Part shown: one piece after another, positions 4,209-10,413 of the stretch
Numbering within the stretch: the stretch's first letter is position 1
How the letters are laid out: each line of letters starts with the position of its first letter
UHGV virus genome: UHGV-1326493
Length of the DNA stretch: 11,306 nt
From: a virus
Reading direction: 5' to 3' (one strand)
Program-made: the position numbers and the translations under genes
The notes under the pieces: model-generated
What the model was told of the DNA's origin: nothing
The model's database searches: none
Seen by the model: only the letters and a program-made list of their open reading frames with translations

Positions 4209-4299
4209 CGGAGTTTAATTAGGTGGTTTGCTGGGAGGGTTGCTTATAATCCTCCACTTTTAATTTGATTGTTAGAATATTATCGCTAATAAAATTACT

Positions 4300-4605
4300 A
4301 TGCATAGTGGTATTTCTATGGACATTACACCAGTTCTTCACGCTCTTTATGCTATAGCTGCACAGACACTGTGTGGCATACTTACCGGGAACTGGGCTTA
4401 CGGGGCGATAGCCGGTTGTGCGTTCTTCATTGCTCGTGAACATACCCAGGCAGAATATCGCTGGATTGAAATGTTCGGGCATGGCAAGCGTATGAATATG
4501 CCGTGGTGGGGAGGGTTTGATCCACGCGTGTGGGATGTGGGAAGTCTGTTGGATTTTTCTTTCCCAATTATCGGATGCTTATTGGTATGGATTCTTGCAT
4601 CGTAG
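4300..4605 (+). CDS. hypothetical small membrane protein (about 95-101 aa, 2-3 predicted hydrophobic helices)
   Basis: ORF reads ...MDITPVLHALYAIAAQTLCGILTGNWAYGAIAGCAFFIAREHTQAEYRWIEMFGHGKRMNMPWWGGFDPRVWDVGSLLDFSFPIIGCLLVWILAS, with hydrophobic stretches at both ends. No convincing SD for ATG 4300 or ATG 4318. A TATAAT hexamer lies at 4245-4250. Sits between the tailspike and sib/attP. Confidence 0.45.
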   Translation: MHSGISMDITPVLHALYAIAAQTLCGILTGNWAYGAIAGCAFFIAREHTQAEYRWIEMFGHGKRMNMPWWGGFDPRVWDVGSLLDFSFPIIGCLLVWILAS

Positions 4606-7681: not shown

Positions 7682-7873
7682 TCAGTCTCCTTTAGTGCGC
7701 AAGTGGTTTTTCCAGCGGTTTTGCGCCGCGCTGCCCTTATCTCGGACTCCCTCTCTGGCAATTCCAGAAAATGAAAACAACACCACACGACGATTGCTAA
7801 CTCTCAACCACTGGCTGGGATAGCAAAGTCTGTATACACGGGAGATAAGCATCTTAGCTTTACGGTTTTTCAT
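7682..7873 (-). CDS. small basic protein, 63 aa; paralogue of the adjacent 58-aa gene
   Basis: Starts MKNRKAK; ATGA overlap with the upstream paralogue. Its 5' end carries the 18-nt repeat GATGAAAAACCGTAAAGC (plus 7857-7874). Confidence 0.5.
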   Translation of the reverse strand: MKNRKAKMLISRVYRLCYPSQWLRVSNRRVVLFSFSGIAREGVRDKGSAAQNRWKNHLRTKGD

Positions 7874-8046
7874 CTTACTGCGTACCCTTTCTTCCGCCTG
7901 TTCTGTGACGCGCTAGGCTTACGCTTTGCGGCAAAAGCCACCTGACCAAATGGATGGAGTACCGCTATCTTATGGTTGCTGATAACCAGCTCCACCACAC
8001 GCACAGGTCGCTGTAAAAAAAGTCGTTTTGCTTTACGGTTTTTCAT
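7870..8046 (-). CDS. small basic protein, 58 aa; paralogue of the adjacent 63-aa gene
   Basis: Internal ATG (plus 8044-8046) preceded by AGGAGAG at 7-nt spacing; starts MKNRKAKRLFLQRPVRVV... The same 18-nt repeat lies at plus 8030-8047. The track's longer form 7870..8088 is unsupported. Confidence 0.5.
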   Translation of the reverse strand: MKNRKAKRLFLQRPVRVVELVISNHKIAVLHPFGQVAFAAKRKPSASQNRRKKGYAVR

Positions 8047-8896
8047 CGTTTTGCTCTCCTGCGTCTCCTTTGATGCGAATGCCAGCAAGCCAGTTTCTTA
8101 TGCCGATATATTCAGCGTTCCTGAAACCGCTTTTTACATATATAAATGGCAAGCGAAGATTGTGACCATTGGCTGCCAGGTAGTCTTTACAACCCTGTTC
8201 GGTGAAACAGCAGGTAACGAATTCATCAATATCTTTCACAGCAACGCGCCGCCATTTTTCTGGTGGCTCTCGAAAGTTTTCATGAAGTAGTTCGAGACGA
8301 CGACTTTGGCGTTTATTGGCTTCATTGCCATCTTCATCAACCCAGACAATCCGGTCATAGTCATAATCAGCATCAACAACAATTTCGCGCTTTTGATACA
8401 CACAAAACATAGGGTCTGACGTTATTCGATTATCCTGTGTTCGAATATTTTCACCGATGATGCCAAACGAATCTGGTGCAGATTTTGTCTGCAACTCTGC
8501 TATGCGCTTACTTCCATCCGAGATAACACCTTCGTAATACTCGCGCTGCTCGTTGAGTTTTGATTTTGTCTCCTCAAGCTCAACACGCAGCTTCCCTACC
8601 GTTAGCGCAATATCCTCGTTCTCCTGGTCACGGCGTTTTATGTATTGCTGGTTTCTTTCCCGTTCATCCAGCAGCGCCTGCACTACTTCAGGGTTGAAAG
8701 CTGCGATATAACGCGCGTTATTCTCTGCGTTTTCCTGTCCATCAAAGCCGGTCCATTTGATAACGTCTTCACATCGTTTATCACCTGGTGTATGCACCGC
8801 ATATGTACCAGTACCCGACGAAATAAATGCGACCCATTCGCCTTGTGTTGCCTGTTTTGCTATCTCACGCAGTGCCTGGTAATTAATTTCGCTCAC
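8033..8896 (-). CDS. Ea22-like early protein, 287 aa
   Basis: GTG start with GGAGG 6 nt upstream. MSEINYQALRE... and ...LDERERNQQYIKRRDQENEDIALTVGKLRVELEETKSKLNEQREYYEGVISDGSKRIAEL... and the ending GIRIKGD... match what I recall of lambda Ea22; the middle and C-terminal half differ. Confidence 0.7.
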   Translation of the reverse strand: MSEINYQALREIAKQATQGEWVAFISSGTGTYAVHTPGDKRCEDVIKWTGFDGQENAENNARYIAAFNPEVVQALLDERERNQQYIKRRDQENEDIALTVGKLRVELEETKSKLNEQREYYEGVISDGSKRIAELQTKSAPDSFGIIGENIRTQDNRITSDPMFCVYQKREIVVDADYDYDRIVWVDEDGNEANKRQSRRLELLHENFREPPEKWRRVAVKDIDEFVTCCFTEQGCKDYLAANGHNLRLPFIYVKSGFRNAEYIGIRNWLAGIRIKGDAGEQNDEKP

Positions 8897-9200
8897 TGGC
8901 TGCCTCCTTTGCTGGGCTTTCTAACTTCTGAGTGGTTGTATCAAACTCAAACAACTTAACCACGTCATCAAACAGGACATAATCGCCATCAGAATCTTCA
9001 GTCATGTCAGCGCCACAATCCTGACCGAACGAGTCACAACCATCCATATCAAGTTCGTATCGCTTGAGTTTTGCGATATTTGATAAATTCAGCGCCAGTA
9101 CAGCAAGGTCATAAACCTCATCAGCGGTATACCCGGCACCATGCCCATACATTTCAATGCGGGATATGATTTCTTCTACCCGTTGTTTTGTGATTGTCAT
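8883..9200 (-). CDS. hypothetical acidic protein, 105 aa
   Basis: ATG at 9200 in ATGA overlap with the upstream gene; its 3' end overlaps the Ea22-like start by 14 nt. Confidence 0.55.
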   Translation of the reverse strand: MTITKQRVEEIISRIEMYGHGAGYTADEVYDLAVLALNLSNIAKLKRYELDMDGCDSFGQDCGADMTEDSDGDYVLFDDVVKLFEFDTTTQKLESPAKEAASERN

Positions 9201-9658
9201 TTTTGCTCACCACTCTGTTCTTCCAGAAAAATACGCATAGCCTCAAGCATCTCTTCGGTGTCATACGGAGACAGCTTGTCACGCAGGATGTGTTCAATGC
9301 TGTTAATGAACTTGCGGATTGCTTTGCGTTCAATTTCAGCCAGGAAAGCATCGGTGGCTGGGGTTTCAGTAACATCATCTTCCCATTCGCTAAACTCCTC
9401 ACGACAAAAGTCATTAAATTCCTTCTCAGATTGCTTAAGCGAGGTATTTTCAGCAGCCATCTTCGCGCATTTAGCCTCAAGGTTATCAATCGTGATTCCA
9501 GCAGAACTACACTCCCGCAACGCCGTTTCCAGTTTTGATTCAAGTTCACCGAACTTACGGACAAGATATTCAGCGTTTGTTTCGTTAACCTTTAAATCTC
9601 GTGGGATGCATTTGCCTTTCAGAAAACCATCCATCTCAATTAGTGACATTTGTTTCAT
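9197..9658 (-). CDS. hypothetical acidic protein, 153 aa
   Basis: Start placed at ATG plus 9656-9658, which forms an ATGA overlap with the stop of the 54-aa ORF upstream. The track's GTG start at 9676 has no SD. Confidence 0.55.
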
Positions 9659-9819
9659 TTCTTCCCACTCCGCCACATCGCATTCAGATATTTGTTTTGA
9701 TTTACTGATGGAAAAGAATTTCTCTTAAGCAATTCCTCTCTCGATGGCATTGGCTTTACGCGTTGGCGAATAATCATTTCTGCCGGAAGAATGCCGGGAT
9801 TGTATGCAAGTCCTCTCAT
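9655..9819 (-). CDS. hypothetical protein, 54 aa (not in the track; below its length cutoff)
   Basis: ATG at plus 9817-9819 overlaps the stop of the upstream gene (ATGA); GGAGAG 5 nt upstream; its own stop overlaps the next start (ATGA). Translation [54 protein letters not shown]. Confidence 0.45.
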
Positions 9820-10106
9820 GATTTACTCTCCACTAACTGGTCAATAGCCATGCTAAGTGACATACCTAAAGTCTCGATATGCTGCTGAATATCCTGTAGC
9901 GTCTGCGCCTGAGATAACAGGATTTCACGGTTGCATAACTCTTTAACCAGATGCTCAAACTTGCTGTAATAACCGATACGGCTTAGTGTTTCTTTCCCTG
10001 CATTCTCGCCTTCTTTGATAATTCCTCTTTCACTAAGAATCAGGTCGTGTTTGGTTCCGGTAATAACGTATTTTCCGAGGTCGATGTTTAGCTTCATTGT
10101 TTTCAT
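9816..10106 (-). CDS. hypothetical protein, 96 aa
   Basis: Start chosen at ATG plus 10104-10106 ([17 protein letters not shown]...) with GAGGAA 6 nt upstream. The track's longer form to 10289 would overlap the upstream gene by about 170 nt. Confidence 0.5.
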
Positions 10107-10116
10107 TGTTAATTCC

Positions 10117-10413
10117 TCAGTCATTACTGATAGCGCCATAGCGTGAGCGGTAATTACGCAGGCGCGGGTCGATATATTCAGGGAAGTGGGTATATGTGGC
10201 TTTGCGGAATGGTCGGATTGATGTCTGGTAAATCCGCTCGCGCTCTTCTTTCTCTGCAAGCCATATACAGTGGCGAAATTCCTTTTCATCTTTCGTTTCC
10301 TGCGGTAGAGACATTATCTGGTCGTAGTTTTTCCTGAATTTATCCAGCACCTCCGATACGGAATTGCCGGAACAGCGGCGCGCGTCATCCGCACCATACA
10401 GAGGCGCTGGCAT
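10117..10413 (-). CDS. hypothetical protein, 98 aa
   Basis: ATG at 10413 with AGGAGA 5 nt upstream; 13 nt after the ssb stop. Confidence 0.6.
   Translation of the reverse strand: MPAPLYGADDARRCSGNSVSEVLDKFRKNYDQIMSLPQETKDEKEFRHCIWLAEKEERERIYQTSIRPFRKATYTHFPEYIDPRLRNYRSRYGAISND

What the first reader, a model, noticed from the sequence alone, without database searches (positions are those of the whole stretch)
9655..9819. Unlisted 54-aa ORF bridging two genes through ATGA overlaps at both ends
The apparent 139-bp gap between the 96-aa and 153/159-aa genes is filled by an ORF whose ATG overlaps the upstream stop (plus TCAT at 9816-9819) and whose TGA overlaps the downstream ATG (plus TCAT at 9655-9658), with GGAGAG upstream. 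This also relocates the start of the downstream gene from the track's GTG at 9676 to the ATG at 9658.
Basis: seen in the sequence. Interest (0 to 1): 0.4.

Follow-up and report, generated by a model that had tools for sequence, protein, structure and literature searches.

The report
Known small phage gene, missed by annotation
The "unlisted" 54-codon reading frame is a real, long-catalogued small phage gene (DUF2737 family, identical to HkaI of phage HK620) of unknown function; the gene track simply missed it, so the finding is correct but ordinary.

Summary
A 54-aa ORF (9655..9819, minus strand) fills the 139-bp "gap". Its ATG shares ATGA with the stop of the upstream 96-aa gene, and its TGA shares ATGA with the ATG at 9658 of the downstream gene. 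GGAGAG lies 6 nt upstream of its ATG.

It is not new. The protein matches Pfam DUF2737 (PF10930, E = 2.6e-31) and is 100% identical to HK620 HkaI. It corresponds to HK97 gp38, P22 ORF56 and Sf6 gp23, and NCBI's pipeline annotates it in the E. coli genomes sampled, with the same 4-nt overlaps.

Coding is well supported:
- dN/dS is 0.08-0.24 against Salmonella phage homologues.
- Variable sites by codon position are 25/12/40.
- Among the 12 compared sequences all length differences are in frame, and only this frame stays open.

The downstream EaE-like gene most likely starts at ATG 9658. Homologues behind unrelated upstream genes begin at the equivalent residue.

In 19 of 19 lambdoid loci the gene follows abc2 (anti-RecBCD), or in one locus a remote Abc2-like gene. 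A 30-aa core also occurs in virulent Guernseyvirinae phages. No function is known: no confident fold, no PDB relative, no functional literature. Interest is low.

The parts
9655..9819 (-). DUF2737-family small protein gene (54 aa; the same protein as HK620 HkaI, and the counterpart of HK97 gp38, P22 ORF56 and Sf6 gp23)
   Evidence: ORF listing. Pfam PF10930, E = 2.6e-31. PHROG 1117, E = 4e-38. 100% identical to HK620 hkaI. dN/dS 0.08-0.24. Codon-position variability 25/12/40.
9826..9831 (-). Shine-Dalgarno-like GGAGAG, 6 nt upstream of the DUF2737 ATG, inside the 3' end of the DUF5405 gene
   Evidence: Sequence. Conserved in L001 and L005, weakened to TGAGAG in L002.
9816..9819 (-). ATGA overlap: stop of the DUF5405 gene and start of the DUF2737 gene
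   Evidence: The same overlap is annotated in E. coli JNE082640, PhiR12_1 and Sf6.
9655..9658 (-). ATGA overlap: stop of the DUF2737 gene and start of the EaE-like gene
   Evidence: The same junction occurs in HK620, HK022, ST-32, Stx2a phage, Emek and others.
9668..9671 (-). GGAG, 9 nt upstream of ATG 9658: the likely ribosome-binding site of the downstream gene, embedded in the last codons (R-S-G) of DUF2737
   Evidence: The block GGCGGAGTGGGAAGAAATGA is invariant in 8 loci and accompanies two different downstream genes.
9197..9658 (-). EaE-like gene, 153 aa from ATG 9658 (the track's GTG at 9676 would give 159 aa)
   Evidence: PHROG 614, E = 2.8e-60. tblastn hits to P22 EaE and HK97 gp37. 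N-termini of homologues in other contexts.
9674..9676 (-). GTG used by the gene track as the downstream start; most likely not a start codon
   Evidence: It lies within the ATG-TGG (Met-Trp) codons of DUF2737. No SD precedes it. It becomes TTG in Emek and NM-3, and the stretch differs in P22.
9816..10106 (-). DUF5405-family gene (96 aa), present in some relatives and absent in others, sitting between abc2 and the DUF2737 gene
   Evidence: Pfam PF17399, E = 1.2e-5. PHROG 154. Present in L001, L002, L005 and L023; absent in HK620, P22, HK022 and others.
10117..10413 (-). abc2 (anti-RecBCD protein 2), the constant upstream neighbour of the DUF2737 gene in lambdoid and P22-like phages
   Evidence: Pfam PF11043, E = 9.5e-61. 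Neighbourhood table.

Best explanation
The ORF at 9655..9819 (minus strand) is a genuine protein-coding gene of the early-left (PL) operon of a P22-like/lambdoid E. coli phage. It encodes a 54-aa, strongly basic protein (net charge +8, pI about 11) of the DUF2737 family, the same protein as HK620 HkaI.

Shown:
- Family membership.
- Purifying selection on this frame.
- A conserved position directly after abc2, with or without an intervening DUF5405 gene.
- Conserved 4-nt start/stop overlaps with whatever gene follows.

Inferred:
- The gene is translated by coupling. Ribosomes terminating at the UGA of the DUF5405 gene reinitiate at the overlapping AUG, helped by GGAGAG 6 nt upstream.
- Ribosomes finishing DUF2737 reinitiate at AUG 9658 of the EaE-like gene, whose Shine-Dalgarno (GGAG, 9 nt upstream) is written into the last codons of DUF2737.
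- The gene therefore also carries the translation-initiation region of its downstream neighbour. This explains why its C-terminal tail switches with the downstream module: ...WRSGKK with ATGA, versus ...WRKGGKQ with AAGGAGG...GTGA.

Inferred, low confidence: the protein itself acts like other PL-operon micro-proteins (Kil, CIII, Gam, Ral, Abc2), that is, by binding a host component. It would do so through the conserved core P-x-[RK]-x-E-L-L-x-R-N-S-F-x-S-V-N-x-N-K-Y-L plus a basic tail. Given the constant linkage to abc2, a role connected to RecBCD or DNA-end handling is the first candidate to test.
For: Family and identity:
- Pfam DUF2737, 107.7 bits. PHROG 1117.
- 100% identity to HK620 HkaI, 96% to Sf6 gp23, 75% to P22 ORF56.
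- 139 protein clusters, several holding hundreds of member sequences.
- 106 clusters at 50% identity in 1.8 billion proteins, mostly about 50-60 aa, plus fragments and a few fusions.

Coding signal:
- dN/dS is 0.08 against P22, 0.17 against ST-32 and 0.24 against Emek.
- Variable sites by codon position are 25/12/40, and only this frame is free of internal stops in all 12 sequences.
- Length variants of 54, 55, 56 and 58 aa are all in frame.

Neighbourhood and overlaps:
- The annotated overlaps are identical in PGAP, HK620, Sf6, mEp043, Emek, NM-3 and CP-1639.
- abc2 lies directly upstream in 18 of 19 lambdoid loci, and a 28%-identical Abc2-like 97-aa gene in the 19th.
- 226 phage records hold abc2 and 223 hold full-length DUF2737.
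- The tail co-varies with the downstream ribosome-binding site.
- ATGA chaining runs through the operon.

Protein properties:
- The family is basic: median net charge +5, median pI 10.
Against: - There is no direct expression data for this gene (ribosome profiling, proteomics) in anything I could search.
- Translational coupling is inferred from geometry only.
- The AlphaFold models are weak (pLDDT 61 and 70, pTM 0.22-0.28). There is no structural or sequence relative in the PDB. The mode of action is therefore a guess.
- The core motif also occurs in virulent Guernseyvirinae phages. None of these appeared among the abc2 matches, which argues against a function that strictly needs Abc2.
- The abc2 and DUF2737 record counts were compared as totals, not record by record.
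Confidence: 0.9

Rival explanations
1. The ORF is a chance open frame in a non-coding intergenic spacer, and the gene track was right to omit it.
For: About 3% of shuffles of the internal codons stay open. The ORF is short (54 aa), the likely reason the gene track omitted it. At least one RefSeq record (HK022) also leaves it unannotated.
Against: - Pfam E = 2.6e-31.
- dN/dS 0.08-0.24 at saturated dS.
- Third-position excess of substitutions, and only this frame open in all homologues.
- In-frame indels only among the compared sequences.
- Homologues down to 37-50% identity keep the same size and core.
Confidence: 0.01
2. The 54-aa gene is real, but the downstream EaE-like gene starts at GTG 9676 as in the track, overlapping DUF2737 by 22 nt. 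Alternatively, both starts are used.
For: - GTG 9676 is in frame with the EaE-like ORF and gives the longest ORF.
- The GTG is present in most E. coli relatives.
- PHROG 614's profile extends 26 positions N-terminal of the match, so some members are annotated longer.
Against: - No SD-like sequence precedes the GTG, whereas GGAG lies 9 nt before the ATG.
- The GTG is explained by the conserved Met-Trp codons (ATGTGG) of DUF2737. It changes to TTG where that dipeptide is Met-Leu.
- EaE-like homologues behind unrelated genes (an HD-family hydrolase gene in mEp460 and Lys8385Vzw, a ren-like gene in HK639, and L025) begin at the residue equivalent to the ATG.
- HK620, HK022 and PGAP annotations use the ATG.
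Confidence: 0.06
3. The sequence is conserved mainly as an RNA or transcription element: the 'tL3' terminator that the HK620 record places inside hkaI, equivalent to window 9726-9714. On this view the protein is incidental.
For: HK620 (AF335538) annotates a regulatory terminator tL3 inside hkaI. A local hairpin GAGAGGAAUU...AAUUCUUUUC forms in the predicted fold.
Against: - The terminator scan finds nothing on the minus strand here.
- The whole-ORF RNA fold is no more stable than shuffles (z = -0.5).
- There are no Rfam hits in the window.
- The stem is AT-rich, and the U-run is part of the stem rather than a tail.
- The substitution pattern is that of a protein.
- A weak terminator could coexist with the coding function.
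Confidence: 0.03

Closest known systems
HK620 HkaI, HK97 gp38, P22 ORF56, Sf6 gp23 (Pfam PF10930 DUF2737; PHROG 1117)
   Same: The protein is identical to HkaI, 96% identical to Sf6 gp23 and 75% to P22 ORF56. It has the same size and the same position directly downstream of abc2 in the PL operon. It has the same 4-nt overlap with the next gene.
   Different: Nothing of substance. In this window a DUF5405 gene sits between abc2 and the DUF2737 gene, as in Sf6 and PhiR12 phages but unlike HK620 and P22. The gene's ribosome-binding site is therefore GGAGAG inside the DUF5405 gene, rather than the GAGGAATTTACC that follows abc2.
DUF2737 homologues of virulent Guernseyvirinae siphophages (PHROG 4684; for example vB_SenS-Ent2 gp53, phiEap-2 gp11)
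   Same: They share the core ...[14 protein letters not shown](P/G)S(V/P)(N/D)xNK(Y/H)L... and a basic tail. They have a similar size of 51-56 aa. They sit in chains of small overlapping genes.
   Different: The N-terminal 20 residues are unrelated. The genomic context is a cluster of small genes between the lysis cassette and the terminase. None of these phages appeared among the abc2 matches.
Translationally coupled overlapping genes (AUGA/UGAUG junctions) of phage and bacterial operons; established knowledge, for example trpE-trpD and trpB-trpA
   Same: A 4-nt stop/start overlap on one strand, with an SD inside the upstream coding region. Six such junctions chain through this operon.
   Different: Coupling has not been shown experimentally for this gene. 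Here the geometry is the only evidence.
Small host-directed proteins of lambdoid PL operons (lambda Kil, CIII, Gam, Ral; P22 Abc1, Abc2, Arf); from established knowledge and PMC12315714
   Same: The same operon, small size, and no match to any enzyme or other functional family. It lies adjacent to the recombination/anti-RecBCD module.
   Different: No sequence or fold similarity to any of them was found, and no target or phenotype is known for DUF2737. The analogy is positional only.

Membership tests
DUF2737 (Pfam PF10930) | Score above the Pfam gathering threshold over the full model | tested here: met
   107.7 bits against a cut-off of 25, covering residues 1-52 of a 53-position model, E = 2.6e-31.
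DUF2737 (Pfam PF10930) | Small stand-alone protein of about 50-60 aa with the conserved core R33, S35, F36, N42 (P25, E29, N34, L45 nearly invariant) | tested here: met
   Alignment of 30 diverse members; the window protein carries every invariant residue.
DUF2737 (Pfam PF10930) | In temperate lambdoid and P22-like phages: located directly downstream of abc2 in the early-left operon | tested here: met
   19 of 19 lambdoid loci, one of them with only a remote Abc2-like gene. In the window abc2 lies at 10117..10413, with only the DUF5405 gene between.
Translationally coupled gene pair | Stop of the upstream gene overlaps or abuts the start of the downstream gene on the same strand, with an SD inside the upstream gene | tested here: met
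   ATGA at 9819-9816 and 9658-9655. GGAGAG at 9831-9826 and GGAG at 9671-9668.
Translationally coupled gene pair | Translation of the downstream gene depends on translation of the upstream gene | not testable with these tools
   Needs nonsense or frameshift mutants with reporter fusions, or ribosome profiling.
Anti-RecBCD (abc) module of P22-like phages | Homology to Abc1 or Abc2, or a demonstrated effect on RecBCD | tested here: not met
   The 54-aa protein matches only DUF2737 in Pfam. No literature links it to RecBCD. The only link is physical linkage to abc2, so it is not filed as an Abc protein.
EaE family (downstream gene) | Sequence similarity to P22 EaE / HK97 gp37 | tested here: met
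   tblastn: HK97 gp37, 57% identity over residues 1-123; P22 EaE, 60% over residues 60-113. PHROG 614, E = 2.8e-60.
Known anti-phage defence proteins (PADLOC) | Match to a PADLOC model | tested here: not met
   No hit for the 54-aa protein.

The most novel reading that the evidence does not exclude
DUF2737 may be an unrecognised host-targeting micro-protein. Its 30-residue core ([23 protein letters not shown] plus a basic tail) is shared by temperate lambdoid/P22-like phages and by virulent Guernseyvirinae. In the temperate phages it forms a fixed two-gene unit with the RecBCD modulator abc2. On this reading it binds a conserved enterobacterial target, such as RecBCD or another DNA-end or nucleic-acid factor, or a defence system, and acts as a takeover or counter-defence peptide. 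My evidence neither supports nor excludes this beyond the linkage and conservation.
Probability: 0.15. Interest if true: 0.45.

Novelty: already known. Interest (0 to 1): 0.1.

Why it matters
The practical value is for annotation. The gene track behind this window misses a conserved 54-aa gene and, as a result, puts the start of the next gene 18 nt too far upstream. The same omission exists in at least one RefSeq record (HK022). Correcting it follows what HK620, Sf6, P22 and PGAP already do.

Biologically, the case shows how lambdoid early-operon genes are chained by ATGA overlaps. It also shows how the last codons of one gene double as the ribosome-binding site of whichever mosaic module follows. 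The only open question is what DUF2737 does, and this window adds nothing special to that beyond another instance.

Tried and rejected
- Literature searches for DUF2737, PF10930, hkaI/HK620, abc2/P22/eaE/orf56 and HK97/gp38/abc2 gave no functional information. A 2025 survey of lambdoid Rec modules does not discuss this gene in the sections read.
- NCBIfam and PADLOC gave no hit for the 54-aa protein.
- AlphaFold2 was run with 11 and with 30 aligned sequences. It gave pLDDT 61 and 70 and pTM at most 0.28, showing only two or three short helices.
- Foldseek against the PDB gave no match. A profile search of PDB sequences gave only a chance hit at E = 0.89. No fold-based inference is justified.
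- Rfam found nothing in the whole window, and the RNA fold of the ORF is not unusual. An RNA-element reading was rejected.
- The terminator scan does not support the HK620 'tL3' site.
- The search for related loci with the diverse alignment failed because no conserved stretch was available. With the closer alignment it returned only 7 loci in species-representative genomes. Those records are titled Escherichia, Shimwellia, Intestinirhabdus and, oddly, Chryseobacterium.
- Long "fusion" hits (P0121-P0128, P0142) are ORF over-extensions through the abc2 3' end, or fused or frame-disrupted variants. The 711-aa repeat protein P0152 looks unrelated.

Full report
**1. Observation.**
On the minus strand, an ATG at 9819-9817 opens a 54-codon frame that ends with TGA at 9657-9655. 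The tetranucleotide ATGA (TCAT on the plus strand) sits at 9819-9816 and at 9658-9655.
- The start codon therefore overlaps the TGA of the upstream 96-aa gene (9816..10106).
- The stop codon overlaps an ATG that is in frame with the downstream ORF (9197..9658, 153 aa).
- GGAGAG lies at 9831-9826, 6 nt before the ATG.
- The track's alternative start for the downstream gene, GTG 9676, leaves exactly 139 bp to the upstream stop.

An open frame of this length arises in about 3% of shuffles, so the geometry alone would not be decisive. The comparative evidence is.

**2. What it is.**
The 54-aa product matches Pfam PF10930 (DUF2737) over the full model at 107.7 bits, against a gathering score of 25 (E = 2.6e-31). 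It also matches PHROG 1117 (E = 4e-38).
- It is 100% identical to HkaI of phage HK620, 96% to Sf6 gp23 and 75% to P22 ORF56. The HK620 and mEp043 records call it similar to HK97 gp38.
- NCBI's PGAP calls it "DUF2737 family protein" in the E. coli genome rows sampled that cover it.
- In strain JNE082640 the annotated coordinates show the same two 4-nt overlaps.
- The big-database search returned 139 clusters, several with hundreds of member sequences.
- An exhaustive profile search of 1.8 billion representatives found 106 clusters, mostly about 50-60 aa, plus fragments and a few fusions.

The window itself is a new mosaic of a P22-like E. coli phage: tailspike, int, xis, ea genes, the DUF2737 gene, the DUF5405 gene, abc2, ssb. 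No record in the collections covers 80% of it.

**3. Is it coding?**
I compared the window with 11 fetched homologues.
- All length differences are in frame: 54, 55 and 56 aa, and 58 aa in Intestinirhabdus.
- Nei-Gojobori dN/dS against the Salmonella phage genes is 0.08 (P22), 0.17 (ST-32) and 0.24 (Emek), at high or saturated dS.
- Variable sites fall 25/12/40 on codon positions 1/2/3.
- This is the only one of six frames without internal stops in all 12 sequences.
- Rare frame-disrupted or fused variants exist, mostly in low-count clusters (P0126, P0136, P0142).

**4. Start of the downstream gene.**
The downstream protein is EaE-like (PHROG 614; similarity to HK97 gp37 and P22 EaE). Four observations favour ATG 9658.
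- Homologues that follow unrelated genes begin MRMNVFEMEGFLRGKC..., MKLFEMEGFLRGKC... or [14 protein letters not shown].... This is where ATG 9658 ([17 protein letters not shown]...) puts the N-terminus. The DNA upstream of those starts is unrelated. The upstream genes are an HD-family hydrolase gene in mEp460 and Lys8385Vzw and a ren-like gene in HK639; L025 has a diverged DUF2737 gene upstream.
- HK620, HK022 and PGAP annotate the ATG.
- GGAG lies 9 nt before the ATG, and nothing purine-rich precedes the GTG.
- The GTG is a by-product of the conserved Met-Trp codons (ATG-TGG) of DUF2737. It becomes TTG where the dipeptide is Met-Leu.

I put the GTG start at about 6%.

**5. How it works (expression).**
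Six junctions in this operon are ATGA overlaps, so the DUF2737 gene is one link in a chain of genes set up for termination-reinitiation coupling.
- The last 20 nt of the gene are really the initiation region of the next gene. Two tail types exist.
- ...WRSGKK, with GGCGGAGTGGGAAGAAATGA, precedes EaE-like genes and an unrelated MKEVK... gene.
- ...WRKGG(K/N)Q, with AAAGGAGGCA..CAGTGA, precedes Ea22-like genes that start with GTG.
- The second ribosome-binding-site block reappears in the window at 8896 in front of its own Ea22-like gene.
- At the 5' side, HK620, P22 and HK022 have abc2-TGAGGAATTTACC-ATG(DUF2737). The window, Sf6 and the PhiR12 phages have a DUF5405 gene placed right behind that same abc2-proximal ribosome-binding site, with the DUF2737 gene coupled to its end instead.

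These are typical lambdoid mosaic joints at gene boundaries. Coupling itself is inferred, not shown.

**6. How it works (protein).**
Nothing functional is known. Literature searches were empty, and a 2025 survey of lambdoid recombination modules does not discuss the gene in the sections read. What the data show:
- The protein is very basic, with net charge +8 and pI 11. The family median is pI 10.
- A core P-x-[RK]-x-E-L-L-x-R-N-S-F-x-S-V-N-x-N-K-Y-L is conserved, with R33, S35, F36 and N42 invariant in 30 diverse members.
- The N-terminal 20 residues are conserved only among temperate phages.
- Virulent Guernseyvirinae (Jerseyvirus, phiEap-2, Serratia phage Otaku) carry the core in a small-gene cluster between the lysis cassette and the terminase.
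- In all 19 lambdoid-type loci inspected, the gene follows abc2 directly or with only the DUF5405 gene between. One locus has a 28%-identical Abc2-like 97-aa gene instead.
- The phage collection holds 226 records with abc2 and 223 with full-length DUF2737.
- AlphaFold2 gives only two or three short helices at pLDDT 61-70. There is no PDB relative.

My committed but low-confidence reading is a host-component-binding micro-protein, like its operon neighbours. A RecBCD or DNA-end connection is the first thing to test. The occurrence in Guernseyvirinae, which did not appear among the abc2 matches, argues against strict dependence on Abc2.

**7. Rivals.**
- A chance ORF is excluded by sections 2 and 3.
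- An RNA or terminator element is not supported. The HK620 record marks a 'tL3' terminator inside hkaI, but the scan does not pick it up, the RNA fold has z = -0.5 and there are no Rfam hits. A weak terminator could coexist with the coding function.

**8. Novelty and verdict.**
The feature is nevertheless an already catalogued gene family, present in public phage records such as HK97, HK620 and P22 and in Pfam. The finding amounts to an annotation correction for this window. Interest is 0.1.

Noticed in passing
window 9655-9680 and 8885-8915 (minus strand); L005, L006, L008: The C-terminal tail of DUF2737 switches with the downstream module, because the last codons are that module's ribosome-binding site. 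WRSGKK + ATGA precedes EaE-like genes. WRKGGKQ + AAGGAGG..GTGA precedes Ea22-like genes. The latter block (AAAGGAGGCAGCCAGTGAGCGAAATTAAT) recurs in the window in front of the 287-aa gene at 8896.
   Followed up: partly
window 9816-10116 compared with L003 (HK620) 1488-1503: The DUF5405 gene looks like a precise insertion between abc2's downstream ribosome-binding site (TGAGGAATT(T/A)AC(C/A)ATG) and the DUF2737 start. Phages with and without it share the same abc2-proximal sequence. PHROG 154 and RefSeq label this protein 'replication initiation protein'; the only basis shown in the Sf6 record is a noted similarity to phage P2 Orf83.
   Followed up: partly
window 7873-8046 and 7685-7873 (minus strand): Two adjacent small ORFs (58 and 63 aa) both start MKNRKAK and are 42% identical (pairwise E = 8e-7). 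They are apparently tandem paralogues in the ea region. The second is joined to the first by ATGA.
   Followed up: partly
window 6525-6504, 6493-6474, 6297-6278 (minus strand): Three terminator-like hairpins with T-runs lie in a row between the last ea gene and xis. The strongest is AAGCCGCC-TGAT-GGCGGCTT followed by TTTCTT. This is a possible tL-type terminator cluster in front of xis-int.
   Followed up: no
L018 (HK022, NC_002166.1) 4270-4434: The RefSeq HK022 record has only 36 features and leaves the identical DUF2737 gene unannotated between abc2 and the Ea22-like gene. This is the same omission as in the window's track.
   Followed up: yes
proteins P0001 and P0012: Two E. coli DUF2737 variants carry in-frame tandem duplications of 13-16 residues ([15 protein letters not shown]). 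The frame is kept even through larger rearrangements.
   Followed up: no
L025 (CACSKA010000001.1, titled Chryseobacterium sp. 18061); hit H213 (OR850339.1, titled 'Staphylococcus phage', 1698 bp): Enterobacterial-type lambdoid genes (ssb at 75% identity, DUF2737, an EaE-like gene; Abc2 at 90%) occur in records labelled as non-enterobacterial. Contamination or mislabelling is likely.
   Followed up: no
window 9141-9728 (plus strand): A 195-aa ATG ORF runs antisense to the EaE-like gene and the 3' part of the DUF2737 gene. It is probably a shadow ORF of the coding strand and was not examined further.
   Followed up: no
window 9816-10289 (minus strand); proteins P0122-P0124: The DUF5405 frame in the window stays open upstream through the 3' end of abc2, giving a 157-aa ORF. 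In relatives without the DUF5405 gene, the DUF2737 frame does the same. Longest-ORF callers therefore produce spurious N-terminally extended proteins (...ACVITAHAMALSVMTEEFTMRGLAY...).
   Followed up: partly
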